Assembly: GCA_027013145.1 (NCBI GenBank)
Contig: JALUXX010000016.1
Span: 22,983 to 86,982, forward strand
Source: Gammaproteobacteria bacterium
Lineage (GTDB): Bacteria; Pseudomonadota; Gammaproteobacteria; 21-64-14
Direction: 5' to 3'
Length of the DNA: 64,000 nt
A model generated the notes under the pieces. That model was not told the DNA's origin. It did no database searches and worked only from the letters and a program-made list of their open reading frames with translations. Positions 39,731-60,572 of the stretch are shown in pieces (positions within the stretch are counted from its first letter, which is position 1; every line of letters starts with the position of its first letter). Position numbers and translations under genes: made by a program.

Positions 39731-39784
39731 CCGGGCGGCGTGGGTATCCACGGGGTCGTAGACAACTGCAAAGAGGGGATCGTC

Positions 39785-40516
39785 ATGGAAAACAAGCAGC
39801 ACGGCGTCACCGCAACTTCAAAGGGCAACCGGCCGCACGCTTCCGCGCCGACCGGGATCGTTGCGACCTTCGTCGCCGTCGTAACCCGGCCGGCGGAGTT
39901 CTTTTCCGCAATGCCCCGGACGGGCGGCTACGGTCAACCGCTGATCTTCATGGTCGTCATGGGCGTCGCGGGCGGGCTCATACGTGCCGTGCTCGGCATG
40001 CTCGGTCTCCTCACCGCGGGATCCACGGCCACGGCGCTGACCGGAATCATCCTCGCGCCGGTCCTGATCCTGATCTTCGGCTTCATCGGTGCAGCGATCC
40101 TGTTCATCATCTGGAAGATGATGGGTTCGCAGCGGGACTTCGAGACCGCATACCGGTGCGTTGCATACGGCAGCGCGATTTCGCCTTTGACGCAATTCCT
40201 TATGCTGATACCCTATCTGGGCATCGTCTTGGCCCTCGGATGGTGGGCGTTCATCCTCGTGGCCGCCAGCACCCAGGTTCACGATGTGGGGCGGAGTGTC
40301 GCGATCACAGTCTTCGGCGGGATCGCCGCGGTGCTGGCCCTGGCGGGTATCGGTATGCAGTTCACGGCTCAGCGGATGGTGAATTCGCTGACCAGGACGC
40401 AGCAGCAACTGCAACTCGATCAGACCCGGGATCCGGCCAAGGCCGCACAGGATCTTGGCAAGCTGCTCCAGCAGATGCAGAAGGCGTCCGGGCAGGGAGG
40501 CAGCGCGGGGCGCTGA
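39785..40516 (+). CDS. Yip1-domain (DUF1282-like) integral membrane protein
   Basis: GAGGGG RBS. Five TM helices in the Yip1-like arrangement. Conserved Gly-rich TM segments. Confidence 0.55.
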   Translation: MENKQHGVTATSKGNRPHASAPTGIVATFVAVVTRPAEFFSAMPRTGGYGQPLIFMVVMGVAGGLIRAVLGMLGLLTAGSTATALTGIILAPVLILIFGFIGAAILFIIWKMMGSQRDFETAYRCVAYGSAISPLTQFLMLIPYLGIVLALGWWAFILVAASTQVHDVGRSVAITVFGGIAAVLALAGIGMQFTAQRMVNSLTRTQQQLQLDQTRDPAKAAQDLGKLLQQMQKASGQGGSAGR

Positions 40517-40852
40517 CCCTCCACGCGGCCGAGCCGCAGCTTTCCGTTTCGTGTTCGACACGGCCGTATGCCGCGCGCCCGGCGCCGACCGCGCGGGGAC
40601 ACGTCCTTCATCTCTCGGCATCCCCCAGCGGGCATATGGGCGTTCCCGGCTGCGGCCCGTCCGGCACCGGCGCTATAATTCGGTCAAGGGCGAGGGATCC
40701 CGTCGGCGCCGGCCGTGCCGCGCTCGCGGCGCGACCTGGCGGCGGGATGCGACGGGGACGTTCGGCAGGGACGCGCGCGGCGCGTGGTCGGCGCCCGATG
40801 TGCCGGTCGGTACCCGCCCGCAGATGGTTTTCGGCCGAGTCGGGGGGCTCGC

Positions 40853-46152: not shown

Positions 46153-46396
46153 GGTCGTCGCTTCTCGGGTGGGCTGCCGTTCACCGCACGACCGGCGGTT
46201 CGACGGACGGGCGCCGCCCGAGTCCGGCTCGTCGTTTGCGACCCGTCGCGGCGGCCGGCGTTTCCGCAGCCGGCCGCGAATCCGGCGAACGGGTCTTGTA
46301 AAAATGAATTTCAATATCGAAACGCTTTCGGTGCCGGAGACGCGGCCACCCACACTGATAAACACCAACTTACTGTTGTTCAGAGGTTTTTCTTTG

Positions 46397-46412
46397 TGGC
46401 CCGGCTCTTGCT
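46397..46412 (+). promoter_or_regulatory. Candidate sigma-54 promoter TGGCCC-N5-TTGCT upstream of the OmpA-fusion gene
   Basis: GG and GC dinucleotides at the canonical 12-nt spacing, ~185 nt upstream of ATG 46595. The -24 element is imperfect (TGGCCC instead of TGGCAC). Confidence 0.4.
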
Positions 46413-46594
46413 TGGCACTTGTCCCGATACGCCGGGGTCTCGTGGTCTGCCCCGAAGACATGTCCCAAAGGATGGAGATGAACGGGCCATGCCACGATTC
46501 GGCTCGCGCCGTCCCCGGCCGAGGCGTCCGGTGGGCGCGCAGCCGCAAGAGCATGTGGTTCGGCCGTCTGCCGGGCGATGAAGAGGATCGCAGA

Positions 46595-47545
46595 ATGACT
46601 CCACATCCGTTGCGAAAAACCGTCGGTTTGCTGGGCTTGCTCTGGGCCCTTGCCCTCGGTCCCGGTGCCGCGCAGGCCGCCGTCCAGACCTTCATCAAGC
46701 CGTATCCCGGCTCCACCGTACACAGCACCTGGACGCACAAGTTTGATCGGGTGATGCTGCCGGCGGGCAAGGTGCATTTCGATAACAAGACGCAAACCGA
46801 TGTTGTGGCCAAAACGATCGAGGTCAAAGGGCGGCTGACCTACGTGGATTACGAAACGCCGGAAGACCGCGGCGGCTTCGAGGTGCTGGAGAACTATAAG
46901 CAGGGGCTTGCCCGGGCGGGCTTCAAGATCCTGTTTTCCTGTTATGCCGCGGCCTGCAGCAAGGGAGGCGATGTCGGCTATGTCCTCAACCGGGACCAGT
47001 TCGGAGACGACCCGCCACAGGTCGGCAGCGACCAGACCGGCTACCTGACCGCGAAGCTGGCGCGTCCCGAGGGTGACGTCTACGCCACCGTGATTGTGGA
47101 TGGGAACAATCACGCCACGGACGTGGCGATCGTCGAGGCCAAACCCATGCAGACGGGCATGGTGAAGGTCGACGCCAAGGCCTTGCTCAACGACATCGAC
47201 CGCACCGGCCACGCCGCCATCTACGGCATTTACTTCGACACCAACAAGGCCACGGTCAAGCCCGCGTCGAAACAGGCGCTGGTCGCGATCGCCAAGCTGC
47301 TCAAGACGCGCCCGAAACTCAAGCTCTACGTGGTCGGCCACACCGACAACGTCGGCACCTTCGACTACAACATGGGCCTGTCCAAACGACGTGCCGAAGC
47401 AGTGGTGGCCGTGCTGGTCAAGCAATACGGCATTGCCTCCGGTCGCCTGCGCGCTGCCGGCGTGGGCCCGCTGGCGCCGGTGCTGGCCAACACCACCGAG
47501 GCGGGGCGCGCCAGGAACCGGCGCGTGGAACTGGTGGCGCAATGA
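46595..47545 (+). CDS. OmpA-family protein: N-terminal DUF4892-like domain carrying a YPGS motif, fused to a C-terminal OmpA/MotB peptidoglycan-binding domain
   Basis: Signal peptide. N-terminal domain (FIKPYPGSTVHSTW...). C-terminal OmpA-like motifs (IYFDTNKATVKP, YVVGHTDNVGTFDYNMGLSKRRAEAV, RNRRVELV). Confidence 0.75.
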   Translation: MTPHPLRKTVGLLGLLWALALGPGAAQAAVQTFIKPYPGSTVHSTWTHKFDRVMLPAGKVHFDNKTQTDVVAKTIEVKGRLTYVDYETPEDRGGFEVLENYKQGLARAGFKILFSCYAAACSKGGDVGYVLNRDQFGDDPPQVGSDQTGYLTAKLARPEGDVYATVIVDGNNHATDVAIVEAKPMQTGMVKVDAKALLNDIDRTGHAAIYGIYFDTNKATVKPASKQALVAIAKLLKTRPKLKLYVVGHTDNVGTFDYNMGLSKRRAEAVVAVLVKQYGIASGRLRAAGVGPLAPVLANTTEAGRARNRRVELVAQ

Positions 47546-47592
47546 GCGGTTCAAAAAACATCAATGTATCAGAAGTCTTGGGGTACTACATC

Positions 47593-48102
47593 ATGAATAA
47601 AACAGGTATATCGCTTGCATCGTTCGTGTTGCTCTGCCTGCTGGGCGCGCAGACCGCAAACGCGGCGCAGCCCATCGCCCCCCGGGTGCCGGTAACCAAA
47701 GAGGGCAAGCTGATCAATTACGACTGGAAAGGCACGTGCCCACCGCAAAGCGAGGTCGGTGTGCCGGCCTATCCGGGCAGCCTGTGCACCAAAGCGGCAA
47801 TGTTCAACAAGCACTCCGGGTTTGTCGAGCTGATATCCGGCACGAGCGCCGCGGCGGTCGTGTCCTGGTATTCCGGCCATCTCTCCGGCTGGCGGCATAC
47901 GAAGGTTATGAGCGGCGACGTCATCTTTGTGCCGCCCGGCGTTGACCTGAACCGTGTGTATCCCGGCTATAGCGACACCAATATCACCATACATAAGCTG
48001 ACGGCCGGCGGCGTGAAACTGAAGAAAATGATTTACGCGTTCCAGGGCACGCCGAAGACACTGATCACTATTGACTATGAAGTCAATGGAGGCATGCGAT
48101 GA
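47593..48102 (+). CDS. Small secreted protein of the YPGS...WY paralog family (169 aa)
   Basis: Signal peptide. Motif AYPGSLC ... VVSWYSGHLSGWRH shared with the next gene and with 51306 and 51836. Confidence 0.5.
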   Translation: MNKTGISLASFVLLCLLGAQTANAAQPIAPRVPVTKEGKLINYDWKGTCPPQSEVGVPAYPGSLCTKAAMFNKHSGFVELISGTSAAAVVSWYSGHLSGWRHTKVMSGDVIFVPPGVDLNRVYPGYSDTNITIHKLTAGGVKLKKMIYAFQGTPKTLITIDYEVNGGMR

Positions 48103-48611
48103 AAGCCTATGCGGTCTATGCAATTGCAACGGCTTTGGCGGCTCTAAACGGGGCGCCGGTTGTGGCTGCGCCGGTCGCGCCGCATCCTCCGCTTAGCAAG
48201 CTCGGAAAGCAGATGCTGGCGGCGCAGCATGGCAAGGCTAGAAAAGTTTGTCCCGATGCGGCTTACGTCGCCATGCCGATCTATCCGGGTTCTTTGTGTG
48301 TTTCAAACACCACGATTTCGAGCAATGGAAGGAAGGATCCGCTGGAAGTGCTCGTGCTCGTCAGCAATGATGCCGTGGCAAAAGTTCGCGGCTGGTATAG
48401 AAAACACCTCAAGGGCTGGAAGTACAACTCCGAGTTTGGAAACTACGCACCTCCTGGCTGGAGTATCCGGACAATTATGTCCATGCCACAGGTCGAGATC
48501 GAGAAAGCCGACGACACCAGCCTCTGGATGTACAAGATCGCCTATGACTTGAAAGGGGTGCATACCCTCATCAACATCTACTACAAACCGCATCGGGGCG
48601 CGAGGCCGTGA
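48099..48611 (+). CDS. Small secreted protein of the YPGS...WY paralog family (170 aa)
   Basis: Signal peptide. IYPGSLC ... VRGWYRKHLKGWKY. Start overlaps the stop of the preceding paralog. Confidence 0.5.
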   Translation: MKAYAVYAIATALAALNGAPVVAAPVAPHPPLSKLGKQMLAAQHGKARKVCPDAAYVAMPIYPGSLCVSNTTISSNGRKDPLEVLVLVSNDAVAKVRGWYRKHLKGWKYNSEFGNYAPPGWSIRTIMSMPQVEIEKADDTSLWMYKIAYDLKGVHTLINIYYKPHRGARP

Positions 48612-48972
48612 AATCTGTTGGCTGCGCCACGACTGTCAATCGTCCGCCGGCCAGTTTGTCCGACGGAGGCGATTGAAACAGGGGCGCGATGAAGGAACTT
48701 GCCGCAATCGTTATGGCCGTGGCATTCACTGCCATGCCGATCGACGCGGCGACCGCGGGGTGCCGGACGGGGGCTGGGTGCCGGACACGATGAAGGGCTT
48801 GCGCACAAGCCTCCCGCGCCTGCCTGCGCCGCCGCCGGAACCGGGCGACCCGGGCGGTCGCTCAACGCCCTGGGGCGCGCGGCTGCGCGTCGCGCCCTTG
48901 CGCGGGTGGGAGGGACGCTGGATGTCGCCCTGCGAGGACGTCCGGTGCCTGGCGGTAACCGAGGAGAAAGAC

Positions 48973-49317
48973 ATGAAGCGATGCACGATTGCATGGAAGA
49001 TGGCCGCGGGCCTTTTTGCACTCGCCCTGGCGGGCATGCTGCCTAGTTTCGCCTCGGGGCGCCAGCTTTGGGCGGGAGGACGGAACGTCGATCCCGCCAC
49101 GCCGGCCTGCGCCGTGGAGAAGGCGGCCGCGAAACAAGCGCTCTTCCAATGGGACATCTGCATGGGTGGGCAGACCAAGCCGCCCGTCATGGGCGGCAAC
49201 GCGACCGTCTACTACCTCGAGCGGCGCAGGCGATGTGCGCCCAAATACCGTATCTTCACCCGCGCCGAGAACCGCTTGAATGCCTGCCAGGAGCGCCGGA
49301 AGGGCCACCCGCGCTGA
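48973..49317 (+). CDS. Small Cys-containing secreted protein (114 aa)
   Basis: GGAGAAAG RBS. Signal peptide (MAAGLFALALAGMLPSFASG). Five Cys residues. Confidence 0.4.
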   Translation: MKRCTIAWKMAAGLFALALAGMLPSFASGRQLWAGGRNVDPATPACAVEKAAAKQALFQWDICMGGQTKPPVMGGNATVYYLERRRRCAPKYRIFTRAENRLNACQERRKGHPR

Positions 49318-49382
49318 GCCTGGGTGACGATCGAAAGGAACGGCGGACACGCGTGGCCGGCGAAAGACATAGGAGAGGCGTC

Positions 49383-51212
49383 ATGAACGTCCATGCACAA
49401 CACCCGATCCGTGCGGCGGCGCTCGCCATGTTGTGGGTCGCACTGCTCATCCCACCGTCGCAGGCAGCGATGAACCGTGGCCGGCCGATCAACTGGGGCG
49501 GAGGGATCGGCCGGGACGCACGGGCGAATGGACCGCATTTCAGCCAATGGCGTCCGCTGTGGCGTTTCGTTTGGTCGGCAACGAGGCGCAACTACGATAT
49601 GCGCCCCGCGCCGAGTGTGGCCGGTTCGCCGAACTGCCCGGCGGATCTCGGCATCGGTCCGATCGTCGAGCGTATCATCGGCACGACCTATAGCCACCGC
49701 TACGGGGATGCGGTCCATGCGCTGGGTCAGTTTCAGAGGCGTCTGCTTTGCCTCGACCCCGACGGGGCGCACGGAGTGGACTTCGCGCTCTCCGCGTTCA
49801 ACGCCCTGGCCGTGCGCGACCTGCATGGGCGCGAGCGGGATGAGGCGGTGATCGGTTCGTTCAATGCGGGCCTGCTCGCCTTCGATACGGTTCAATACAG
49901 CGGACGCAGTTGGTGGCTGCCCGTCATGTACCACGACTACAACACCGAGCGGTCGCTGATCCGCCGCTTCCCGGGTACCGCCCTGGGGCTGTGGCTGTAC
50001 GACGTTCGGGACGGGCGGCTCCACCAGCTCACGTTCGGCCGCGCAAACCCGGCGGTCTACCGGGGCCTGATGCGCGCATTCGCCCATCCGGGCGTATTCG
50101 GGCAGGGCGACTGCAGCCTGCTCGGCATGGCGGGCACGGGATTCGTCTGCGGCGGGGGCGGCGGTGATAACCGCTGGATGGGCGGCGGTGGCGGCGGTGC
50201 CGGTGGCGGCGGCGGGAGCGGCATGGGCGGCGGCTCGGGCGCTGGCCTGAGCTGCATGGTGTCGGCCGCGATGAACACCGGCAGTCTCGGCACACTTTCG
50301 TGCATGGTGCGCGCCGGTGGTCTGGGCGGGACGCGTATACCCGTGACCGCCACCTCCCACCTGCAGATTCAGGGCGTTTTCGACACACAATGCGCCCAAA
50401 ACGACGGGTCGGGTAAGGCGCCGAGACTGCCCGATTACGACAAGACGAAGGCCGGGAGCGAGCACGCGGATGCCAAGGAAAGCCACTGGTACGATGCCGT
50501 TCTCAATTTCATTCATGACTTGAATTTCGTCAACGGCGGCTCCGGAGGGGGTGGTTCCTCGTCCTCGTCGGGTAGCCAGAGCAAGCCGCCGCCGGAACCG
50601 CAGCCGGGTCAGGTTGGGTATGGGCAAATGAAGGCAGCCAGGGATGCATACTTCGACAGGCAGCGGGCCAAGCTCAACAAGCACGGATTGAAGAAATTCA
50701 AGAACAAGGGCGGCCATGCGGTGAATGGCGGGGTTGCCGGCGGGGGCAGCGGCTGCGGCGGCAATGGGACCAACGCCGCGGCGCGGGTGGCGGCCCTGTT
50801 TGCCTGTACGGGAACCGGCAGCGCCCGCGGCGGGATGAGCGCATCGGGGCCGCGCTTTCCGGGTGCCGGCGGCGGCGGGCCGCTCTCGATGCCCGGGCCG
50901 GCCGCTGGCGGGGTGGGCGCGCCGAGCGGGCTGCTCTCCTGTGCCATGCAGGGTGGAAGACTCGTGCGTGCCGGTGTCCATGACAGGCGCTGTCAGCAGA
51001 CCGATTGCGCGCCCGGCGCAAGCTGCTCCTGCAACGGCTCGGGCGGCCCTGGCCAGGCCGCGGCCATCGGAGCCGCCGGGCGTCGGGCGGTCAGCAGCCC
51101 CAACAACGCCAACTGGGGCGCGATCGATTTTGGGCGCAATCATTATGGCAACGGCGGCGGTTTTACCGGCCCGAAGATTCCGGGGCACGGCGGGGGGCCG
51201 AGCAAGCGGTAA
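49383..51212 (+). CDS. Glycine-rich, Cys-containing secreted protein (609 aa)
   Basis: AGGAGAGG RBS. Signal peptide. Long poly-Gly/Ser tracts (GGGGGDNRWMGGGGGGAGGGGGSGMGGGSGAG). 19 Cys residues. Confidence 0.55.
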   Translation: MNVHAQHPIRAAALAMLWVALLIPPSQAAMNRGRPINWGGGIGRDARANGPHFSQWRPLWRFVWSATRRNYDMRPAPSVAGSPNCPADLGIGPIVERIIGTTYSHRYGDAVHALGQFQRRLLCLDPDGAHGVDFALSAFNALAVRDLHGRERDEAVIGSFNAGLLAFDTVQYSGRSWWLPVMYHDYNTERSLIRRFPGTALGLWLYDVRDGRLHQLTFGRANPAVYRGLMRAFAHPGVFGQGDCSLLGMAGTGFVCGGGGGDNRWMGGGGGGAGGGGGSGMGGGSGAGLSCMVSAAMNTGSLGTLSCMVRAGGLGGTRIPVTATSHLQIQGVFDTQCAQNDGSGKAPRLPDYDKTKAGSEHADAKESHWYDAVLNFIHDLNFVNGGSGGGGSSSSSGSQSKPPPEPQPGQVGYGQMKAARDAYFDRQRAKLNKHGLKKFKNKGGHAVNGGVAGGGSGCGGNGTNAAARVAALFACTGTGSARGGMSASGPRFPGAGGGGPLSMPGPAAGGVGAPSGLLSCAMQGGRLVRAGVHDRRCQQTDCAPGASCSCNGSGGPGQAAAIGAAGRRAVSSPNNANWGAIDFGRNHYGNGGGFTGPKIPGHGGGPSKR

Positions 51213-51305
51213 GGATGGACAGGTGTCCCGGCGGCGATAGAACGACTGCCGGGGAGATCCCTCACAGTACCAACAAACGTCGATATTCATGAAGGAGCAT
51301 CCACA

Positions 51306-51779
51306 ATGAATCGAAAGACATTCGTCCTGGGCCTGGCCCTGACGGTCGTCACGACCCCAGCCCCGGCCGCCGGCATCCCGCTTCCGGGCCACCGGCCCAA
51401 GAACCTGTCTTCCGACGCGTTTCAATTTGTTCTGCAGCAGCTTCGGCGAATCAAGCAGTTCGATCTGAAAACGCTGGGCATTCCATTGGCAAAAAGCCTG
51501 CGTCTTGCGGGTGCTTTCGGAGATCCAGCGCATCCCTTTGGGCTGGATGCGGTGTCGCCGAAGGACATGGAGACCATGCTGGCCTGGTATCACGAACGGC
51601 TCCCGGATTGGAAGGTGTCGTTCCACTTCAAAGGTAAAACTGCCACCCTGACGTCGCCCCGGTCCGCGGGAACAAAAGTCACCATCCTGAATTGCTCAGG
51701 CGGTACCTATCAACTGTACCCATGCGGTTCCGTAGTGCGGTTCTACAACACGCCGCCCGTTCCTCCCGCAGCACCATGA
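51306..51779 (+). CDS. Small secreted protein, distant member of the WY-motif paralog family (157 aa)
   Basis: AAGGAG RBS. Signal peptide. METMLAWYHERLPDWKV resembles the shared motif. Confidence 0.45.
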   Translation: MNRKTFVLGLALTVVTTPAPAAGIPLPGHRPKNLSSDAFQFVLQQLRRIKQFDLKTLGIPLAKSLRLAGAFGDPAHPFGLDAVSPKDMETMLAWYHERLPDWKVSFHFKGKTATLTSPRSAGTKVTILNCSGGTYQLYPCGSVVRFYNTPPVPPAAP

Positions 51780-51835
51780 AGCACAAGCCGTGAGCCATGG
51801 CCATGAGAACCCGCAATACTCCAGGCGAATCAGGT

Positions 51836-52939
51836 ATGAATCCGATGTCGGGAAACACAAAGCGGTTGGGCGTGGCCATGCTGCGCTGGGTACTGGCCGG
51901 ACCGGCATTGGGATTGTCGGGCCAGGCACTCGCCGGTGCGGTGCCGATCTACCCGGGTGCCGCGCTCGATCCGGTGGCAAGTGCGCAGGAGAGCCACCTC
52001 CGCGAACACGCTGTGAAGGTTTATATTTCGCATGATTCGCTACAGCAGGTCCGGGCTTGGTATCAGCCCAGACTGGCGAAGCAGAGCATTGCAGGATGCA
52101 CATTCAAAGATCCGAAGGAAGGCTGCGGCGCATTCAAACAGACTTGCGAATCGATCGCCATGGCCGGGCGGTGGGTGCAGTGCACGGACGGGATCGTGCT
52201 GAAATGGAACTACATCCCACCCGGCGGCAGCATGGTGGACGCTTTCAATGCCGGCGTACACCTCGTCGGGTGGCGCATCCCGCCCAAGTCCAAGAAGCCC
52301 GCGGCTGCGCACGCCACGCCGCAGAAACCGCAGCGGCTGACGGGACGGGCCGCCGAGACCATGGCGCAGCTCGACGCCATGTCGGCGCAGCTGCAGGCGG
52401 CAACCAAGCAGGCGATGCAACAAGCGGATGCGGAAGGAAAAAGTCTTGGGCTGACGGACACCGTCCGATTCGCAGGCATTCCGGACATGCCGTTCAAGGG
52501 ACTCAAGGACGAAGTGCTCGCCGGTCGTCACCGCCAGCAGGAACTCGAGGCGCTTTACCGAAAGTATCGGTGGCTGACGGCGGCCTTCTATCCGATGAAA
52601 AGGACCGTCAACGGCGTCGAAGACTACGCGCACTGGCTGATCGCCAGGACCGAAGCCCGTATTCATAAGCCACAACAAGCAGCCATCGAGGCTGCGGGCC
52701 AACACGGCGAAGATCCGGCGCAAGCGCAAGCGCGGATGCAGCAATTGATTCGGCAGGGCCGGATGGATGAGGCACGCAAGCTGGGCGAACAAATGGCGGT
52801 CGCCATGCAGGGGGCGGAGCGAAGCGGTAACGTCGTGACGCAACTCCAGTCCAGAGATCACTGGCAGGAATGGGTGGCGGTGATCAAGAAGCTGGCCGCT
52901 CACGCCTACAAGACAAAAATCATTATCGACACGTTCTGA
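51836..52939 (+). CDS. Secreted protein with an N-terminal YPGA...WY family domain and a C-terminal coiled-coil-like region (~367 aa)
   Basis: Signal peptide. PIYPGAALDP ... VRAWYQPRLAKQ. C-terminal Gln/Ala-rich helical region. An alternative start at 51797 is possible. Confidence 0.5.
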   Translation: MNPMSGNTKRLGVAMLRWVLAGPALGLSGQALAGAVPIYPGAALDPVASAQESHLREHAVKVYISHDSLQQVRAWYQPRLAKQSIAGCTFKDPKEGCGAFKQTCESIAMAGRWVQCTDGIVLKWNYIPPGGSMVDAFNAGVHLVGWRIPPKSKKPAAAHATPQKPQRLTGRAAETMAQLDAMSAQLQAATKQAMQQADAEGKSLGLTDTVRFAGIPDMPFKGLKDEVLAGRHRQQELEALYRKYRWLTAAFYPMKRTVNGVEDYAHWLIARTEARIHKPQQAAIEAAGQHGEDPAQAQARMQQLIRQGRMDEARKLGEQMAVAMQGAERSGNVVTQLQSRDHWQEWVAVIKKLAAHAYKTKIIIDTF

Positions 52940-52962
52940 GGAAATGAATAGGAGGAACCAGG

Positions 52963-53412
52963 ATGAGAACCGTCCCGATGACCGTCGCCGCCCTCTGGCT
53001 GTTCGCCGTGGTCGTGCCGTCCGCCGCCAATGCCGCAGCACCCAGGCTCAAGCCCGGCCTGTGGGAGACTACCGCCACCAGCGTCATGGTCGGCACACCC
53101 TTCTCGCCGCCGCCGCAGACCGGCAAGACTTGCCTGACCGAGAAGCAGATCGCCCACCCCTGGGCCGCGCTCCAGGCCAACAAGAACCAGCACTGTAGGT
53201 TCACCCACGTGGAGGTCCACGCGCATTCGGCGAGCTGGCGCATGGAGTGCGACGGGCAGGGCGGGCACATGATCGGAACGGGCACCAGCAAGTACCCCGA
53301 TCCGACGCACATGCAGGGGATGACCCATATGACCGTGAACGCCGGCGGCGAGCAGATGAAGATCGACGTCACCACCGTCGGGCACTGGGTCCGCGCCTCC
53401 TGCCCGAAGTGA
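52963..53412 (+). CDS. Small secreted protein, DUF3617-like (149 aa)
   Basis: AGGAGG RBS. Signal peptide. KPGLWETTAT motif. Four Cys residues. Confidence 0.5.
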   Translation: MRTVPMTVAALWLFAVVVPSAANAAAPRLKPGLWETTATSVMVGTPFSPPPQTGKTCLTEKQIAHPWAALQANKNQHCRFTHVEVHAHSASWRMECDGQGGHMIGTGTSKYPDPTHMQGMTHMTVNAGGEQMKIDVTTVGHWVRASCPK

Positions 53413-53451: not shown

Positions 53452-56184
53452 ATGCCGCCCTCGCCCCGCCTGCACCGGTACTGCACCCTGCTCGTGGCGC
53501 TGTCGACGCTGCCGGCCCCGGCGGGGTCGGTGCAGGCCGATCCCGGCCCGAACTCTCCGTTCGCCGGCATGAGCCAGCGCCGGATGTGGTGCCAGGTACT
53601 CCAACAGGGCATCAGCAGTCCCGCGCGCCAGGCGCATGCGCGCGAGGAGTGTTTCGGCAAGCTGGCGCGCTTCGACAAGGTCGAGACCTGGCAGGGGCGC
53701 CTGACGCTCACCCGGCACTACATCTGCGCCGACCAAAGCGGGACCAAGACCGTGCGTGCGCGCTTTGCCCTCAAGCGCACGCCCTACCTCAGCAACGCCG
53801 AGGTCGCGGGCTCGATCAAGGCCCAGGTCCCTAAAGCGGCGAACGTCTTTCAACAGGCCATGGCGCGCATGCCCGGCGCGAAAGTCGTCATCCGGCGAGA
53901 CCCGACGACCGGCTACACGGAGGGCCCCAACGAGCTGAGCTGGTTCCTGACCGCCGGCACGCTGGACGCGTCCATCGGCACCCGCGGCAGCGACGGCGAC
54001 ACCGCGCACAGCGAAAACGGCAGCGGTTCGGCGGCCATCTCACGCCAGGCGCGCTTGATCTTCGACCTCGAGCAGGGCACCTGGAGCCTGGAGCTGCCGC
54101 CGCTGGACGAGAAGGGCTTTCCGGTCACCAGGGTCACGAGCTCGCCCGAGGGCAGCACGACCGAACACGACCGCGAATCGATGGACGACGTCAGCTCGCT
54201 CGACGGCTATACCGACGATCGGGGCCTGAACAAGTTGCCAGGCACCGGCCTGCAACTGGTCGGACATGTCACGACGCAGGAGGGCGACTGCGAGCGCGAC
54301 GAACTGAGCTGGCGCCTCGCGCCGGCGGCCGACTGCGCCTCGTACAAATACCTGACGCTCGGGATAGAAGACCCCGTTGCCGGCACCCGATGGATCTTCG
54401 ACAGCCATGACGCGCCCGCCGGGCTCGGTCCCGTCAGACTCGACGGGGGCGCTGAATACGCCCAGGACAAGGCGGTCGTGAACATAGACGACATGGTGCA
54501 ATGGACGCCGCCCCGAATCCCCGGTACCACGCTCCACGCAAAGCCCGTCGACCTCTTCGGCGCCTCGCTCACCCTTTCGTATAGCGGCATGCCGGCCACC
54601 AACAGCGACTTCGGCAAGGCCGTTGTGCGATTAGAGATTCCCGACCTGCCGAACTGCGTTGCACCGGAGAGCCGGACCGTGCGACTGTTCTTCGCACGTG
54701 ACGGGCACGGCAATCCCGAGGGCAAGCGCGAGCCGAACTGGTTCTACTACTGGATGCAGAGCAAGGCGGGGGCCGGTCATACCGAAAAAGATGTGGTCTT
54801 CGAGACGGGTTGCGACCCGACAAAACTCGGCTATTTCTACATGCACTATCCCTTCTCCGCGCGCGTGCATATCTGTTCGGCCGCAAAGGGTGTGACAGCC
54901 TCGAGGGACGTCTACGGAGAAGTGGCCTTTGGAATCGATCAGTTCGCTTTGACCATTCGCCACGAGTTCGTGCACAAGATGCTCTACGACGAGGGCCTGC
55001 GGGCCTTCGATGCGTCGTGGTACCACAAGTACGGATTCTCATATTTCAAGCGCGAGGATTATCTTGCCGCGAAGGCCAAGCTCGATCCCGATCGCGACTA
55101 CCTCACCTCCGCCGAAGAACGCAAATACGGCCTCTCTCCCTGGATAAAGGATACACACTGCACCGGCCAGGACGACAACGAATACCTCGCTTACAAGCTC
55201 TCGACCAAACACTGGAAGCTCGGTTCCGCGGATCGACAGGATTGGTCCTGCCCGGGGCGTCAGGGACGCGCCCCCGAGAACGGCCAACCCGACGGGGACT
55301 GCGCCCTGGTGCCTCCCTCGCCCGGCGGGGGCCACTGGCCCGGGTGCGCGGCGCCTCGTGTACGAACGGGATCGCGGAGGTCGAACCCGCGGGAAGCCTC
55401 ACCGGGTGATGAATTGCATTCGGTGCGCGGGGTGGGGATGGCGGACGCCGTGCCCGCGCCGAGCCCGCGTACCACGGACGTGCCAGGGGCGTCTTCCAAG
55501 GCCAATCACACCGGGAACGCCACCGCCCCGGCCGCGGGCGGTGCCGCGGGCATTGCGACGCGATTGAAGAGCCCCGATCCGATGACCCGCTTGCGGGCCT
55601 TGCGCGACTTGGTGACCGCCGGCGGTGGGCCGGCGCCCGGCACGTCAGCGAAACAGGTCCTGGGTGCGCTGGCCTCGGAAGTGAACGGTCCGCCCGCGCC
55701 TCAGCCCATCCGCAACGGCTACCTGCCGCAGGGGGCCTGGCGCCGTGTGCAATACGCACGGCTCAGTGCCCGCTTACCCGAGAAGGCGCTGAGCGTGCTC
55801 TATCGCAGGCATCTCGAGGCCGGCGGCCCGACGAAGAGCTGGCTCGCCATCACGCTGGGCGATGCCGGCGACGCGCGCCTTACGGGTGAGCTGATCGCGC
55901 TGGTGCATGAGGCGCCCGACTGGCCGACCCGCTGGGCCGCGGCCGAGGCTCTGGGTGCCATCGGTTCCCCGGTCGCGGTGCGTGCGCTGGAGGACGTGAT
56001 GCAACATGATGCCGCGACTACGACGATGCAGTCGGACGCAGCCGCTCCGGTCACGTTTTACCCCGTGCGTGAGCAGGCTGCGGGTGCGCTCTTGCGCCTG
56101 GGTATCGGGGTTCACCTCGTCGGACCGGATACCTACGTCGTCGACACGGCCGCGCCGGACCCGCAATCGTCGGTTGTACGTTGA
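53452..56184 (+). CDS. Large secreted protein (910 aa) with an HExxH zinc-metallopeptidase-like motif and C-terminal HEAT/PBS-lyase-type repeats
   Basis: Signal peptide (LLVALSTLPAPAGSVQA). HEFVH at IRHEFVHKMLYDEG. C-terminal HEAT-like repeats (LGDAGDARLTGELIALVHEAPDWPTRWAAAEALGAIGSPVAVRALEDVM). Confidence 0.6.
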   Translation: MPPSPRLHRYCTLLVALSTLPAPAGSVQADPGPNSPFAGMSQRRMWCQVLQQGISSPARQAHAREECFGKLARFDKVETWQGRLTLTRHYICADQSGTKTVRARFALKRTPYLSNAEVAGSIKAQVPKAANVFQQAMARMPGAKVVIRRDPTTGYTEGPNELSWFLTAGTLDASIGTRGSDGDTAHSENGSGSAAISRQARLIFDLEQGTWSLELPPLDEKGFPVTRVTSSPEGSTTEHDRESMDDVSSLDGYTDDRGLNKLPGTGLQLVGHVTTQEGDCERDELSWRLAPAADCASYKYLTLGIEDPVAGTRWIFDSHDAPAGLGPVRLDGGAEYAQDKAVVNIDDMVQWTPPRIPGTTLHAKPVDLFGASLTLSYSGMPATNSDFGKAVVRLEIPDLPNCVAPESRTVRLFFARDGHGNPEGKREPNWFYYWMQSKAGAGHTEKDVVFETGCDPTKLGYFYMHYPFSARVHICSAAKGVTASRDVYGEVAFGIDQFALTIRHEFVHKMLYDEGLRAFDASWYHKYGFSYFKREDYLAAKAKLDPDRDYLTSAEERKYGLSPWIKDTHCTGQDDNEYLAYKLSTKHWKLGSADRQDWSCPGRQGRAPENGQPDGDCALVPPSPGGGHWPGCAAPRVRTGSRRSNPREASPGDELHSVRGVGMADAVPAPSPRTTDVPGASSKANHTGNATAPAAGGAAGIATRLKSPDPMTRLRALRDLVTAGGGPAPGTSAKQVLGALASEVNGPPAPQPIRNGYLPQGAWRRVQYARLSARLPEKALSVLYRRHLEAGGPTKSWLAITLGDAGDARLTGELIALVHEAPDWPTRWAAAEALGAIGSPVAVRALEDVMQHDAATTTMQSDAAAPVTFYPVREQAAGALLRLGIGVHLVGPDTYVVDTAAPDPQSSVVR

Positions 56185-57042
56185 CGATGCGGCCTGGTCC
56201 GATGCATCCGCCCGCCGCTCAGCGGGCCCGCCGTCGGGGGCGGTTGGGATGGCGGGCGGGCCACGCGTTTGTACCGGACGCGCGGCGACTTCGGGAAGGA
56301 GACCTTATCGGAGCGGGCGTCGCGTAAGGGCATGGGGCGCTGCGCTCGGCTGAGAAGGGCGAAATACATCAGAACGCCATTCAAACGAACGTAACGCAAT
56401 ATTGAACCCCGCTCTTGCGATGCTGTGACGGATGGCCCGGTTTGAGCCCGCCGGTGCATTCACCGTCCGCGGCACGATGGCGCAATTGATGTCGTAGTCG
56501 ACCGCACCCGTATGTCACGTCGTCGTCGCGTCCGTCGCCGCGGCCCGGTCATTGCGGTACGCCGATCGAGGCGCGGCAACGGGTCGTCGCGGCTGGCGGT
56601 GCCGTCCCGCCACCGACTGAGAGATTGCAGGCCACGTAGCGCCCGCGGCGGCGCGCATGCATTTCAAAACCGAAATTGTTACGGATCCGCATGCAGGCCG
56701 AATCGGATGCGAACCGCTCGGGCCTGCATACCCCATTGTAATACCGCTATGTTTTCTCAGCGCCCGCGTTTGGCATGGAGATTGCCGTATCCGGCGCAAG
56801 GCGAGGGGCGTCGTGTCCCGAGAAGGACGCGGAACATCGAGCTTGAGGTTGGACTTGCCGCCCGCACGGCCAGCTCGCGCGGGTCTCCGGAAGGATGCCG
56901 GAGGCGTCCACCGGAGAGGTCCGCGTGTATCGCCCCGGAGGCCGGCCGCGGCCCGGAGTCACGGTGCTGAACGGGTCACAAAATCGACCACGTCGCCATC
57001 ACGGATTTTGCATTGTATGTCTTTTCTCGGGAGAAATGACCA

Positions 57043-59523
57043 GTGAACGTTGAAGACCGATCCGCACTTCCGCTTATGCCGATGCTTTTACTGTTCGCCT
57101 TGCTGGCGCTGCCGTCGATGGTCCAGGCTGCCGTCGGCCAATACTGGGAGTGGGAGAATCCGATCCCGCAGGGCAACACGCTGAATGCGGTTGCATGGAA
57201 CGGCAGTAATCTCTACGTGGCCGTCGGGGATCGCGGCACGGTGATGACCAGTCCCGATGCGGTTTCCTGGATGGCCTCCAACGTCGGAAACACGAATCGT
57301 CTCACGGCGGCGGCATGGGGGAACGGGAGATTCGTGGCCGCGGATGATATGGGCGGGATAGTTACCAGCCCGGACGGCGGGAATTGGACGCCCCGTACGT
57401 CGAACTCGAACTACTATGGGATCTCCGGTTTGGTGTGGAATGGAAGCGAATTCGTCGCGGTAGGCGGCGGTGGCGTCATCCTGACCAGTCCGGACGGAAT
57501 CACATGGACATCGATAGTCCCGGGGGCGGGTTCGGCGCACAACCTCAGCGCGGTTGGCTGGAACGGCATGCAGTTCGTCGCGGTAGGTCAGGCGGGTACC
57601 GTACGCACCAGCCCGGACGGCATCCACTGGACGACGCGGACCTCCGGCACGACGGCCGATCTCGCCGGTGTGGTCTGGGCCGGCGCGAAATGGGTGGCCG
57701 TAGGCGGAAACACGGTTCTGACCAGCGCCGACGGCATTACGTGGACAGCCCAGACCGGAGTCACGTCCAATTTTCTGTTGGCCGTGGGCTGCAAGAGCAG
57801 CGAATTGGTTGCGCTGGGCGGAAACGTCACCCTGACCAGCGCCGACGGCGTGAGCTGGACGCAACACAACAACGTCACCTATAGGTTGAACGCGCTCTTG
57901 TGGAACGGCAGCGAATTCGTCGCCGTCGGAGACGGCGGAAAGATCGCTGTCAGCACCGATGGCTCCGTATGGACGTCTCGGACGCAGAACGTGCTGGACG
58001 TGCCGGGGCGGTACGAACCCTCTGTCGGTGGCATCGGATGGTTCGCGGTCAAGGGCGAGTTCGTCGCCGTTACCAACCAGGGGTTGGTGTTGAGGAGCCG
58101 TGACGGATTGCATTGGTCGGTCACGGATACCGGGATCGGCAACAACCTCAGTGCCCTTGACTGTACGAGCACCGAGTGCGTGGCCGTCGGTGCCGGCGGT
58201 CACATCGCAACCAGCCTGGATGCCGCGACCTGGACGCCGCAGACTTCGGGTACGAGCAACACGCTTTATGATGTCGCCTGGGACGCGAAAAACGCTCAGT
58301 TCGTGGCCGTGGGGGCCAACGGGACGATTCTCACCAGCGCGGACGGTGCCGCCTGGGTAGCGCAGAGTTCCGGCACGACGCAGAATCTATTCGGCGTTCA
58401 TGCGGGAGGCGGCGGCATCGTGGCCGTGGGTGGGAACGGAACCATCCTCACCAGCGCGGACGGGACCGTATGGAACGCACGAACCTCCGGCGCCACGTCA
58501 CGTTTGAGTGCGATCACCTTTGGCGGCGGAAAGTACGTCGCGGTCACCCAGCTTACGGGTAAGGCGCTCATCAGTGCCGATGGGGTGACGTGGACGCCGT
58601 ACTCGCTTCCCTCGTTCGCCATCCTGGATACCGTGATATGGGACGGGAAGTATTTCTTCGCAGGAGGACCGCAGTCGCCGGTATTCGTCAGTTCGGACGG
58701 AATGAACTGGACCTCGTACGATACGGGCGCGGACCCCGCGCCGCTGGCGATAGCGACGAACGGAAACGCCAACGCGTCCATCGCTGTCATGGGCGGTTTC
58801 AGCGGCTCGATTCTGGCCTCTGTCCAGCCGGCGCCCACCGGATTGCAGGCCGTGACGGTGACGCAACCGGGTCCGGGTTCGGAAACGTTCAACATTCAGG
58901 GCATGAGTTCGTTGACGGTCGCCGCAAGTTCCGGCAACCAAACGCTGTTGCCGGACGCCGGCATTGCGGGCGCATCGACTTGCAGATCGGCCGGAAGCTG
59001 CACGCTTACATTGCATCCCGCGGCCGGGCGGACCGGCACCGCAGCGGTGACCGTGACCGTTACCGATGGCCATGGACAAAGCGGAAAAGGCACCTTCCAG
59101 GTAACGGTCGGGCCACCGCCGCCACCGAGCGCGAGCGGCTTTTCCAATATCACGATCGCGCAACCGAACGGCGGCAGCGAAAAGTTTGCGGTGACGGGAT
59201 CCGGTACGCTGACAGTAACGGTGCATTCTGGCAACCAGGGACTGTTGCCCGATGCCAATATTGGCGGCGCAGCGAGCTGCACGTCGGCCGGGAACTGCGT
59301 GCTGACGCTGCAGCCGGTTGCACAACAGGCCGGGACCGCCGCGGTGGGTGTGACGGTGAGTGACGCCTACGGGCAGAGTTCAGGCGGCACCTTCACGGTG
59401 TCGGTCAAGGCGGCGCCGTCTGCGGCCGGCGGTGGCGGCGGTGGCCTCGGGCCGTGGATGCTCTTGGGCCTGCTGGGGCTCCTGCCGTGGCGGCTGCGCC
59501 GCCGCGTGTCCCGGCGTGTCTGA
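57043..59523 (+). CDS. Secreted protein with 12 BNR/Asp-box repeats (two beta-propeller-like units), two Ig-like domains and a GlyGly-CTERM-like C-terminal sorting signal (826 aa)
   Basis: Signal peptide. Twelve S-x-D-G-x-x-W-T repeats (TSPDGGNWT, TSADGITWT, SSDGMNWT and similar), each with a (W/F)xGxxFVAVG strand. Two ~100-aa beta-sandwich-like repeats (VTVTDGHGQSGKGTFQVTV / VGVTVSDAYGQSSGGTFTVSV). C-terminus GGGGGGLGPWMLLGLLGLLPWRLRRRVSRRV: Gly-run, TM helix, Arg cluster. Confidence 0.65.
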   Translation: MNVEDRSALPLMPMLLLFALLALPSMVQAAVGQYWEWENPIPQGNTLNAVAWNGSNLYVAVGDRGTVMTSPDAVSWMASNVGNTNRLTAAAWGNGRFVAADDMGGIVTSPDGGNWTPRTSNSNYYGISGLVWNGSEFVAVGGGGVILTSPDGITWTSIVPGAGSAHNLSAVGWNGMQFVAVGQAGTVRTSPDGIHWTTRTSGTTADLAGVVWAGAKWVAVGGNTVLTSADGITWTAQTGVTSNFLLAVGCKSSELVALGGNVTLTSADGVSWTQHNNVTYRLNALLWNGSEFVAVGDGGKIAVSTDGSVWTSRTQNVLDVPGRYEPSVGGIGWFAVKGEFVAVTNQGLVLRSRDGLHWSVTDTGIGNNLSALDCTSTECVAVGAGGHIATSLDAATWTPQTSGTSNTLYDVAWDAKNAQFVAVGANGTILTSADGAAWVAQSSGTTQNLFGVHAGGGGIVAVGGNGTILTSADGTVWNARTSGATSRLSAITFGGGKYVAVTQLTGKALISADGVTWTPYSLPSFAILDTVIWDGKYFFAGGPQSPVFVSSDGMNWTSYDTGADPAPLAIATNGNANASIAVMGGFSGSILASVQPAPTGLQAVTVTQPGPGSETFNIQGMSSLTVAASSGNQTLLPDAGIAGASTCRSAGSCTLTLHPAAGRTGTAAVTVTVTDGHGQSGKGTFQVTVGPPPPPSASGFSNITIAQPNGGSEKFAVTGSGTLTVTVHSGNQGLLPDANIGGAASCTSAGNCVLTLQPVAQQAGTAAVGVTVSDAYGQSSGGTFTVSVKAAPSAAGGGGGGLGPWMLLGLLGLLPWRLRRRVSRRV

Positions 59524-60495: not shown

Positions 60496-60572
60496 TGGCG
60501 CCCCGGCCAGGATTTGAACCTGGGACCTTCCCCTTAGGAGGGGGATGCTCTATCCAGCTGAGCTACCGGGGC
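60496..60572 (-). tRNA. tRNA-Arg (anticodon CCU), 77 nt, with genomically encoded CCA
   Basis: Minus-strand sequence GCCCCGGTAGCTCAGCTGGATAGAGCATCCCCCTCCTAAGGGGAAGGTCCCAGGTTCAAATCCTGGCCGGGGCGCCA. It has a 7-bp acceptor stem, D stem GCTC/GAGC, anticodon stem TCCCC/GGGGA with loop CTCCTAA (anticodon CCT), T stem CCAGG/CCTGG and GGTTCAAATCC T-loop. Confidence 0.9.

What the first reader, a model, noticed from the sequence alone, without database searches (positions are those of the whole stretch)
57043..59523. 12-BNR-repeat double-propeller protein with Ig-like domains and a GlyGly-CTERM-like tail, but no rhombosortase in the window
The protein has 12 clean Asp-box repeats (S/T-x-D-G-x-x-W-T, each followed by a conserved FVAVG strand), two ~100-aa beta-sandwich repeats, and a terminal Gly6-L-G-P-W plus a hydrophobic helix plus RRR (GGGGGGLGPWMLLGLLGLLPWRLRRRVSRRV).

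Gly-run, TM helix and basic cluster is the architecture of GlyGly-CTERM sorting signals processed by rhombosortase. Such cargo proteins are normally few per genome and co-occur with the sortase gene.

Its presence here suggests the segment's secreted proteins are destined for a specific surface-anchoring pathway encoded elsewhere.

The BNR double propeller resembles Ycf48, sialidase or xyloglucanase-type scaffolds.
Basis: partly seen in the sequence, partly recalled or inferred. Interest (0 to 1): 0.5.

Follow-up and report, generated by a model that had tools for sequence, protein, structure and literature searches.

The report
Surface propeller protein with rhombosortase-type anchor
This gene encodes a secreted double beta-propeller protein on an Ig-like stalk whose glycine-run tail belongs to the known GlyGly-CTERM/rhombosortase surface-anchoring class, so it is a new member of a known system, not a new kind of system.

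Summary
The ORF (57043-59523, +, 826 aa) and its tail are exactly as described. There are 13 S-x-D-G-x-x-W units, not 12. The AlphaFold model points to 14 blades in two seven-bladed propellers, followed by two cadherin-like Ig repeats about 55% identical to each other.

The tail gets no hit from the curated GlyGly-CTERM model (TIGR03501). It touches the MYXO-CTERM cutoff but lacks that signal's invariant Cys. That model failure is uninformative, because poly-Gly tails lying within a few kb of rhombosortase genes elsewhere also get no hit.

Positive evidence:
- The closest homolog (44% identity over 809 aa, running into the tail) passes TIGR03501 and sits 19 bp upstream of a true rhombosortase.
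- The same Ig-plus-tail cassette occurs on YVTN and FG-GAP propeller proteins, and two of those tails pass TIGR03501.
- An HMM built from 12 relatives' tails, without ours, ranks our tail first of 11,804 ORF C-termini.

No rhombosortase lies in the window or the 10 kb beyond it. I could not show whether one exists elsewhere in this uncultured gammaproteobacterial genome. A compositionally indistinguishable lineage does have one.

Verdict: real but fairly ordinary. It is a new member of a known sorting class, with an uncharacterised head domain.

The parts
56771..56785 (+). Candidate sigma-54 (-24/-12) promoter TGGCATGGAGATTGC, 258 nt upstream of the start codon
   Evidence: The strict consensus TGGCAY-N5-TTGC occurs twice in 64 kb against 0.22 expected. 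A looser pattern is not enriched. A sigma-54 activator is encoded at 44137-46152. This is a candidate only.
57029..57034 (+). Shine-Dalgarno GGGAGA, 8 nt before the GTG start
   Evidence: Read directly from the sequence. It supports the 826-aa reading over the 813-aa database gene call (P0001).
57043..59523 (+). Complete ORF, 826 aa plus stop codon
   Evidence: An identical protein is in NCBI/JGI/ENA (P0001) and in Logan (P0121).
57043..57129 (+). Sec-type signal peptide (aa 1-29), with predicted cleavage after VQA
   Evidence: There is a hydrophobic core LLLFALLAL and a V-Q-A|A site. The closest homolog has the equivalent AQA|A followed by the conserved VGQxWxWxNP. This is inferred from the sequence; no predictor was run.
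57142..58824 (+). Tandem beta-propeller head (aa 34-594): 13 blades bearing S-x-D-G-x-x-W plus one motif-less closing blade, probably 7+7
58840..59109 (+). Cadherin-like Ig repeat 1 (aa 600-689) with a CRSAGSC loop
   Evidence: Pfam Cadherin_5 scores 26.5 bits, equal to its cutoff, in 2 stretches. NCBIfam tandem-95 repeat gives a weak hit. AF2 models beta strands. 2,903 library proteins match this C-terminal region at E<=1e-3, including giant tandem-repeat proteins.
59110..59136 (+). Pro-rich linker GPPPPPSAS
   Evidence: Read from the sequence.
59137..59406 (+). Cadherin-like Ig repeat 2 (aa 699-788) with a CTSAGNC loop
   Evidence: It is 50/90 identical to repeat 1.
59407..59520 (+). GlyGly-CTERM-class sorting tail: linker KAAPSAA, Gly6 (59428-59445), hydrophobic helix LGPWMLLGLLGLLPW (59446-59490), basic cluster RLRRRVSRRV (59491-59520)
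   Evidence: AF2 pLDDT is below 50 here, as expected for a linker and membrane segment. There is no TIGR03501 hit. MYXO-CTERM scores 19.5-20.0 against a cutoff of 20, but the tail has no Cys. The tail aligns with P0002's tail. It ranks 1 of 11,804 with the relatives' tail HMM, at 26.7 bits and E 2.9e-6.

Best explanation
The gene encodes a secreted cell-surface protein.

Proposed steps:
1. A Sec signal peptide takes it across the inner membrane, where the C-terminal helix holds it.
2. A rhombosortase, a rhomboid-family intramembrane serine protease encoded elsewhere in the genome, recognises the Gly-run, helix and basic-cluster tail and cuts it off within or next to the glycine run.
3. By analogy with Vibrio cholerae VesB, the new C-terminus is joined to a glycerophosphoethanolamine-containing lipid.
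4. The type II secretion system moves the lipid-anchored protein to the outer face of the outer membrane.

There, two cadherin-like Ig domains act as a stalk that holds out a 14-bladed (7+7) double propeller. The propeller most likely acts as a non-catalytic binding platform; its ligand is unknown.

Shown here: the domain anatomy, the tail's homology to tails with trusted GlyGly-CTERM scores, and the rhombosortase adjacency of the closest homolog.
Inferred: cleavage, lipidation, T2SS export, surface display, the binding role, and the presence of a rhombosortase in this genome.
For: 1. The closest homolog, P0002, is 44% identical over 809 aa, and the alignment runs into the tail (GGGGLGPWMLLGLLGLL against GGGGAMGLWTLLGLLSLAGL). 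Its tail reaches TIGR03501 (15.6 bits, cutoff 15.5). The next gene, 19 bp downstream, is a rhombosortase (TIGR03902, 114.7 bits, cutoff 84).
2. Haft & Varghese 2011 (PMC3237569) accept sub-cutoff tails that are C-terminal, tripartite and homologous through a trusted instance. They state that GlyGly-CTERM never has a Cys in the motif and that MYXO-CTERM always does. All of these criteria are met.
3. The same Ig x2 + Gly-run tail cassette occurs on YVTN-type and FG-GAP-type propeller proteins. Of 10 such tails, P0365 (GGGTLGPWSLLLLGVLGL) scores 19.4 and P0372 scores 16.2 on TIGR03501, and three more score 11.9-14.6.
4. An HMM of 12 relatives' tails, without ours, ranks our tail 1st of 11,804 ORF C-termini (26.7 bits). 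The next hits are cargo tails that were not used for training. One (in L005 and L006) lies directly upstream of a rhombosortase. The others lie about 0.2 kb (L079) and about 3.6 kb (L005, L006) from one.
5. Those rhombosortase-linked poly-Gly tails also get no TIGR03501 hit, so our miss carries little weight.
6. Related rhombosortases head T2SS gsp operons. This agrees with the experimentally shown T2SS dependence (PMC6219818; PMC13393428).
7. A lineage with the same tetranucleotide signature as the window (r 0.99; L013, L016, L100, L101) encodes a rhombosortase scoring 155-158 bits.
8. Head domain: high-confidence AF2 propellers and compact 7-bladed structural matches.
Against: - No rhombosortase lies in the window or the adjacent 10 kb. 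None could be traced to the same assembly (ERZ27262636) or run (SRR7968105). Seven candidates were checked and all came from other samples.
- The curated GlyGly-CTERM model does not detect the tail. The best curated hit is MYXO-CTERM, at its cutoff.
- The hydrophobic segment contains two prolines, which is unusual.
- No T2SS genes are in the window.
- Nothing is known about the function of the propeller family, so the binding role is inferred only from the fold and from the absence of catalytic-family hits.
Confidence: 0.65

Rival explanations
1. The tail is just a C-terminal transmembrane anchor. The protein stays tail-anchored in the inner membrane facing the periplasm and is never processed. 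This would happen if the genome lacks a rhombosortase (orphan or decaying cargo, perhaps horizontally acquired) or if the enzyme does not accept this tail.
For: - No rhombosortase was found in the window plus 10 kb, or traced to this assembly.
- The tail is below the TIGR03501 cutoff.
- The gene lies in a slightly GC-poorer stretch with a somewhat atypical tetranucleotide signature, next to a tRNA-Arg.
- Haft & Varghese list four genomes with GlyGly-CTERM proteins but no rhombosortase.
Against: - The Gly-run/LGxW/LLGLL core is conserved with tails that are trusted or linked to a rhombosortase. Conservation of that kind is not expected for a generic anchor.
- In the 2011 survey, 104 of the 108 genomes with GlyGly-CTERM proteins had a rhombosortase.
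- Relatives by genome signature carry the enzyme.
- A 15-residue helix with two prolines is short for a stable membrane anchor.
Confidence: 0.2
2. The tail is a MYXO-CTERM or another Cys-dependent sorting signal handled by a myxosortase-type (CPBP family) protease.
For: TIGR03901 MYXO-CTERM is the best curated hit, at 19.5-20.0 bits against a cutoff of 20.
Against: - The tail has no cysteine, and the invariant Cys defines MYXO-CTERM (PMC3237569; abstracts of PMC11980579 and 10.1101/2023.06.07.544157).
- The organism is a gammaproteobacterium, not a member of the Myxococcota.
- The 2011 paper notes cross-scoring between the two models.
Confidence: 0.02
3. The propeller is a catalytic BNR-type glycosidase (sialidase or GH74 xyloglucanase-like) or a Ycf48-like assembly factor, not a binding module.
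For: - The S-x-D-G-x-x-W motif resembles an Asp-box.
- One homolog is labelled Ycf48-like, one is labelled PSII assembly factor-like, and one carries PF14870.
- GH74 enzymes are tandem seven-bladed propellers (from general knowledge, not tested here).
Against: - There is no Pfam BNR, PSII_BNR or glycoside-hydrolase hit.
- There is no PDB sequence relative, even with a 45-sequence profile.
- The top 50-60 structural matches are WD40, YncE and Vgb-like compact propellers, with no sialidase, GH74 or Ycf48.
- Blades of ~40 aa leave no room for catalytic insertions.
- Homologs carry adhesin-type accessory domains and cell-surface anchors.
Confidence: 0.06

Closest known systems
GlyGly-CTERM proteins of Vibrio cholerae (VesB, VesA, VesC, Xds, VC1485) processed by the rhombosortase RssP/RrtA
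   Same: Both have a C-terminal tripartite tail: a Gly/Ser-rich motif, a short hydrophobic helix and a basic cluster. Both have an unstructured linker before the tail and an N-terminal Sec signal. The expected route is rhombosortase cleavage, lipid attachment, then T2SS-dependent surface display (PMC6219818, PMC13393428).
   Different: - The passenger is a non-enzymatic double propeller on an Ig stalk, not a protease or nuclease.
- The motif is a six-glycine run followed by LGPW.
- The tail is not detected by TIGR03501.
- No rhombosortase has been shown in this genome.
P0002 and its adjacent rhombosortase (Logan SRR31012010 contig, locus L002)
   Same: P0002 has the same signal peptide context, the same 13-unit propeller, the same Ig repeats and a homologous tail (44% identity over 809 aa). 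It is the nearest relative found.
   Different: P0002 has three Ig repeats instead of two, a weaker basic cluster, and a rhombosortase gene immediately downstream, which suggests a dedicated pair. The window gene has no sortase neighbour.
YVTN-type and FG-GAP-type propeller proteins with the same Ig x2 + Gly-run tail cassette (P0328, P0334, P0355, P0365, P0372, P0381; L005/L006 cargo)
   Same: They share a homologous C-terminal stalk-and-anchor cassette (45-53% identity over the cassette). Some of their tails pass TIGR03501, and some of these genes lie next to rhombosortase genes.
   Different: Their N-terminal propellers belong to unrelated repeat families.
DUF6242 (PF19755) / PF25852-bearing 'Ycf48-like' propeller proteins
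   Same: They share the ~40-aa repeat L..V.W.G..FVAVG..G.ILTS.DG..WT. Thousands of homologs exist in many phyla.
   Different: - Homologs use other anchors, including T9SS tails, SLH, dockerin and Cys-containing tails.
- The family has no established function.
- True Ycf48 is a single seven-bladed propeller of photosynthetic organisms, and it was not recovered by any search here.
Tandem seven-bladed double propellers such as Aip1 (1nr0, 1pgu) and the Nostoc repeat propeller 2ymu
   Same: Overall architecture: two seven-bladed propellers in one chain (Foldseek E 1e-18 to 1e-20).
   Different: Sequence identity is only 8-12%, with no evidence of common descent or shared function.

Membership tests
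GlyGly-CTERM sorting domain (TIGR03501) | Located at the extreme C-terminus of a secreted protein | tested here: met
   The tail occupies aa 789-826 of 826. An N-terminal signal peptide is present.
GlyGly-CTERM sorting domain (TIGR03501) | Tripartite architecture: Gly/Ser-rich motif, hydrophobic helix, basic cluster | tested here: met
   Gly6, then LGPWMLLGLLGLLPW, then RLRRRVSRRV. Definition from PMC3237569 and PMC6219818.
GlyGly-CTERM sorting domain (TIGR03501) | No Cys in the signature motif (this distinguishes it from MYXO-CTERM) | tested here: met
   There is no Cys in aa 789-826. Criterion from PMC3237569.
GlyGly-CTERM sorting domain (TIGR03501) | Score at or above the trusted cutoff of the HMM (15.5 bits) | tested here: not met
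   TIGR03501 gave no hit at E<=10 for four tail constructs. Control: poly-Gly tails near rhombosortase genes in L005, L006 and L070 also give no hit. The authors state that the HMM misses true members.
GlyGly-CTERM sorting domain (TIGR03501) | Extended homology running through a trusted GlyGly-CTERM instance (the curators' rule for sub-cutoff tails) | tested here: met
   P0002 scores 15.6 bits, with 44% identity over 809 aa and an alignment that continues into the tail. Cassette homologs P0365 (19.4) and P0372 (16.2) also pass. The tail HMM built without ours ranks it 1 of 11,804.
GlyGly-CTERM sorting domain (TIGR03501) | Co-occurrence with a rhombosortase (TIGR03902) in the same genome | tested here: inconclusive
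   None is in the window or the next 10 kb. Seven candidate rhombosortases were traced and all came from other samples. Lineages with a matching genome signature do have one.
GlyGly-CTERM sorting domain (TIGR03501) | Cleavage by rhombosortase and lipid attachment | not testable with these tools
   This needs biochemistry, as done for VesB in PMC6219818.
MYXO-CTERM (TIGR03901) | HMM score at or above the cutoff (20 bits) | tested here: inconclusive
   The score is 20.0, 19.6, 19.5 or 17.4 bits, depending on how much of the tail is submitted.
MYXO-CTERM (TIGR03901) | Invariant cysteine in the signature motif | tested here: not met
   The tail has no Cys. Criterion from PMC3237569 and the PMC11980579 abstract.
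BNR / Asp-box repeat propellers (Pfam BNR, PSII_BNR/Ycf48, sialidase clan) | Match to a Pfam BNR-type model | tested here: not met
   The Pfam scan at E<=1 lists no BNR, BNR_2, PSII_BNR or Sortilin-Vps10 model. Among the homologs, one carries PF14870 and two others carry Ycf48-like or PSII assembly factor-like labels.
BNR / Asp-box repeat propellers (Pfam BNR, PSII_BNR/Ycf48, sialidase clan) | Canonical Asp-box S-x-D-x-G-x-T-W in the hairpin between strands 3 and 4 of each blade | tested here: inconclusive
   The motif sits in the hairpin between strands 3 and 4 in the AF2 secondary structure. It reads S-x-D-G-x-x-W, one residue shorter than the canonical form recalled from general knowledge.
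BNR / Asp-box repeat propellers (Pfam BNR, PSII_BNR/Ycf48, sialidase clan) | Detectable relationship to solved BNR, Ycf48 or GH74 structures | tested here: not met
DUF6242 (PF19755) | Score above the gathering threshold (29 bits) | tested here: met
   The score is 33.7 bits, but it covers only profile positions 124-217 of 217 on aa 149-234, which is the repeat part.
Cadherin-like Ig domain (PF17892 Cadherin_5) | Score at or above the gathering threshold (26.5 bits) | tested here: met
   The score is 26.5 bits, exactly at the cutoff, in two stretches. AF2 models beta-sandwich strands with pLDDT 62-83. This is borderline.

The most novel reading that the evidence does not exclude
The cadherin-like Ig x2 + poly-Gly tail may be a portable surface-display cassette that sulfur-oxidising and related uncultured Gammaproteobacteria have fused to at least three unrelated propeller heads (S-x-D-G-x-x-W, YVTN and FG-GAP). 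That would define a family of rhombosortase-anchored surface receptors or adhesins. Because TIGR03501 largely misses its poly-Gly tail variant, this variant could account for genomes reported as 'rhombosortase but no GlyGly-CTERM', such as Thioalkalivibrio sulfidophilus and HTCC5015 in PMC3237569.
Probability: 0.35. Interest if true: 0.4.

Novelty: new member of a known kind. Interest (0 to 1): 0.3.

Why it matters
The finding extends the GlyGly-CTERM/rhombosortase system, studied almost only in Vibrio and Acinetobacter, to non-enzymatic propeller cargo in uncultured autotrophic Gammaproteobacteria.

It shows that the curated model misses a poly-Gly variant of the signal, which affects how such genomes are annotated.

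It also points to a reusable stalk-and-anchor cassette shared by different propeller heads.

It does not reveal a new mechanism. The head domain's ligand remains unknown.

Tried and rejected
1. Same-genome rhombosortase.
- I scanned six-frame ORFs of the window and the +10 kb flank with phmmer. Nothing was found.
- I searched proteins with two rhombosortase seeds.
- I scanned GTDB species genomes and JGI metagenomes with rhombosortase alignments.
- I screened the loci by tetranucleotide correlation.
- I spent the remaining contig look-ups on seven candidates chosen by source combination, identity, amino-acid bias or contig match.
- None came from ERZ27262636 or SRR7968105, so this is unresolved. 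It is not evidence of absence.

2. Measuring relatedness to the rhombosortase-bearing lineage with a matching signature. blastn and tblastx of those loci against the window found no shared genes.

3. Building a tail HMM from cargo near the 80 genome rhombosortase loci. Too few cargo tails lie near the enzyme. I used Ig-cassette homologs instead.

4. Genomic-island idea. The tRNA-Arg 3' end faces the gene and GC is lower, but there is no att repeat and no integrase. Not supported.

5. Sigma-54 regulon idea. Only the strict consensus is enriched; the loose pattern is at chance level.

6. MYXO-CTERM. Rejected because the tail has no Cys.

7. A PEP-CTERM or exosortase tail. No PEP motif and no model hit for our tail.

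8. Other. PF25852, common in homologs, is not in the local Pfam copy, so I could not name it.
Full report
**Observation**

The ORF at 57043-59523 (+) is real. It has the third-position GC bias of this genome's genes (0.77). A GGGAGA Shine-Dalgarno lies 8 nt before the GTG start. An identical product is held by NCBI, JGI and ENA (P0001, called 13 aa shorter) and by Logan (P0121, 826 aa). The word-indexed search gave 4,721 homologs at E<=1e-3 among the 8,000 candidates scored.

The window comes from an uncultured, high-GC, Chromatiales-like gammaproteobacterium with an alpha-carboxysome operon. Its species-specific protein clusters have only one or two members.

**Anatomy**

- Residues 1-29 look like a Sec signal peptide (LLLFALLAL core, VQA|A). 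The closest homolog has the equivalent site.
- Residues 34-594 contain 13, not 12, units of S/T-x-D-G/A-x-x-W, spaced 38-41 aa apart with one gap of 48. The motif is one residue shorter than the canonical Asp-box.
- Pfam detects no BNR-type model. It reports only DUF6242 (33.7 bits, cutoff 29) and Cadherin_5 exactly at its cutoff.
- An AlphaFold2 model built on 45 homologs has a mean pLDDT of 82.7, with the propeller region mostly above 90. The tail is below 50.
- The model's secondary structure shows 14 groups of four strands. The last group lacks the motif and appears to be completed by the N-terminal strand YWEWEN.
- Foldseek's best PDB matches are tandem seven-bladed double propellers such as 2ymu and Aip1.
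- I therefore read the head as 7+7 blades. This is inferred, because I could not inspect coordinates.
- No sialidase, GH74 or Ycf48 structure appears among the top matches. Sequence and profile searches of the PDB return nothing.
- Two Ig-like repeats follow (aa 600-689 and 699-788). They are 50/90 identical and each has a C-x5-C loop. A PPPPP linker joins them.
- The tail is KAAPSAA-GGGGGG-LGPWMLLGLLGLLPW-RLRRRVSRRV.

**What the tail is**

The curated GlyGly-CTERM model TIGR03501 gave no hit for four constructs of the tail. The best curated hit is MYXO-CTERM, at 19.5-20.0 bits against a cutoff of 20.

Four lines of evidence say otherwise.

1. The closest homolog.
   - P0002 is 44% identical over 809 residues. 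A global alignment of the C-termini continues into the tail core.
   - P0002's tail just passes TIGR03501 (15.6 against 15.5).
   - The gene 19 bp downstream is a rhombosortase (TIGR03902, 114.7 bits, cutoff 84).

2. The published curation rules (Haft & Varghese 2011).
   - The HMM cannot find all true members.
   - GlyGly-CTERM never has a Cys in the motif, while MYXO-CTERM always does.
   - Our tail meets all of these and has no Cys.

3. The shared cassette.
   - An exhaustive HMMER search with aa 590-826 found 2,903 library proteins at E<=1e-3.
   - Many are giant tandem-repeat proteins.
   - A subset has the same two Ig repeats plus a Gly-run tail on other propeller heads, of YVTN type and FG-GAP type.
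   - Of ten such tails, P0365 (GGGTLGPWSLLLLGVLGL) scores 19.4 and P0372 scores 16.2 on TIGR03501. Three more score 11.9-14.6.

4. The tail HMM.
   - I built an HMM from 12 relatives' tails, leaving ours out, and scored 11,804 ORF C-termini from the window and all fetched loci.
   - Our tail ranked first (26.7 bits, E 2.9e-6).
   - The next hits were cargo tails that were not used for training. One (in L005 and L006) lies directly upstream of a rhombosortase. The others lie about 0.2 kb (L079) and about 3.6 kb (L005, L006) from one.
   - Tails of this poly-Gly kind in L005, L006 and L070 are themselves invisible to TIGR03501, so the curated model is insensitive to them.

**Context of rhombosortases**

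Relatives of the L002 enzyme either head a type II secretion gsp operon (L003, L004) or directly follow an FG-GAP propeller protein with a Gly11-17 tail (L005, L006). All of these enzymes score well above the TIGR03902 cutoff.

This fits the experimentally established route. VesB is cleaved by rhombosortase, linked to a glycerophosphoethanolamine-containing moiety, and moved to the surface by the T2SS (PMC6219818). The tail alone is sufficient for targeting to the enzyme (PMC13393428).

**The missing piece**

No rhombosortase is encoded in the window or in the 10 kb to its right. I tried to find one from the same organism:
- protein searches;
- scans of GTDB species genomes and JGI metagenomes;
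- compositional screening of the loci;
- tracing of seven candidates.

All traced candidates come from other samples.

One lineage has a tetranucleotide signature as close to the window as the window's own quarters are (r 0.99). It comprises Bacterium BMS3Bbin13, an uncultured Chromatiales MAG and two metagenome contigs. It carries a rhombosortase scoring 155-158 bits. I could not measure its relatedness to our organism, because no genes are shared between those loci and the window.

Presence of the enzyme in this genome therefore remains an inference. The 2011 survey reports that 104 of the 108 genomes with GlyGly-CTERM proteins had a rhombosortase. It also reports that cargo lies next to the enzyme mainly when a genome has a single cargo.

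**Regulation and surroundings**

An 858-bp non-coding gap precedes the gene. It contains TGGCATGGAGATTGC (56771-56785), a match to the sigma-54 -24/-12 consensus.
- The strict pattern occurs twice in the window against 0.22 expected.
- A looser pattern is at chance level.
- A sigma-54 activator with HAMP and HTH_8 domains is encoded at 44137-46152.

I treat this as a candidate promoter only.

The tRNA-Arg downstream faces the gene with its 3' end, and the stretch is slightly GC-poorer. I found no att repeat and no integrase.

**Verdict**

The central interpretation, a GlyGly-CTERM-type sorting tail, is well supported by homology and by the rhombosortase adjacency of its relatives. This holds although the tail fails the curated HMM.

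The protein is best described as a new member of a known sorting class with an uncharacterised 7+7 propeller head on a cadherin-like stalk.

Modest points of interest:
- a poly-Gly tail variant that the curated model misses;
- a stalk-and-anchor cassette shared by three unrelated propeller types.

Noticed in passing
window 56771-56785 and 33955-33969; activator at 44137-46152: There are two exact matches to the sigma-54 -24/-12 consensus TGGCAY-N5-TTGC (0.22 expected). One lies 258 nt upstream of the target gene. The other lies about 110 nt upstream of the ORF starting at 34078. A sigma-54 enhancer-binding protein (Sigma54_activat, HAMP, HTH_8) is encoded between them.
   Followed up: partly
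window 56185-57042: An 858-bp stretch between the HEAT-repeat gene and the target has no called gene in the public annotations and no ORF with clear coding bias. It is unusually long for this compact genome.
   Followed up: partly
window 34078-40516: A same-strand cluster of seven ORFs, mostly without Pfam hits, includes a CsgG-like secretion channel (36698-37495), a PASTA-domain protein and a Yip1-domain membrane protein. A sigma-54-like site precedes it, and a 1,125-aa AAA/BTAD/Trans_reg_C regulator (40715-44092) follows it.
   Followed up: partly
window 53452-56184: The 910-aa protein just upstream of the target has a hydrophobic N-terminus, C-terminal HEAT repeats and an HEFVH (HExxH, zinc-metalloprotease-like) motif. 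No family hit explains the N-terminal 700 aa.
   Followed up: no
window 46169-53412: A run of same-strand genes lies upstream of the target: an OmpA-family protein, then six ORFs of 149-609 aa. Only one of the six has a Pfam hit (DUF3617). The same gene order is present in the ENA and Logan copies of the locus.
   Followed up: partly
window 2785-17137: This stretch holds a complete-looking alpha-carboxysome region (form IA RuBisCO large and small subunits, CsoS2-like, CsoSCA-like, shell proteins). A DAB-type pair (561 aa and 1,039 aa) follows it. The assignments rest on translated sequence and cluster names, not on a dedicated scan.
   Followed up: partly
window 60496-60572 (-): A tRNA-Arg(CCT) has its 3' end pointing toward the target gene. 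The 46-62 kb stretch has lower GC (0.60-0.69) than the rest, and the last quarter of the window has the lowest tetranucleotide correlation (0.981). No att-like repeat and no integrase were found.
   Followed up: yes
window 57043 vs 57082: The NCBI/JGI/ENA gene call (P0001, 813 aa) starts at an ATG 13 codons inside the ORF, with no ribosome-binding site. The GTG at 57043 has a good Shine-Dalgarno and gives a more complete signal peptide (Logan call P0121).
   Followed up: yes
L003 8001-16648 and L004 3822-12469: In two related gammaproteobacterial contigs the rhombosortase gene is the first gene of a gspC-D-E-F-G-H-I-J type II secretion operon. This is a genomic link between the sortase and the secretion system it feeds.
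   Followed up: partly
L005 2725-12172 and L006 1818-8237: Here a rhombosortase lies between two poly-Gly-tailed cargo genes upstream (one of them an FG-GAP propeller with a Gly11-17 run whose length differs between samples) and a LysR / form I RuBisCO / CbbX cluster downstream. The glycine run length appears to vary between populations.
   Followed up: partly
one search hits P0286-P0300: The cadherin-like Ig repeat with the CxxxGxC loop also builds giant proteins of 2,000-5,800 aa with up to about 30 tandem copies. These are presumably fibrillar adhesins.
   Followed up: no
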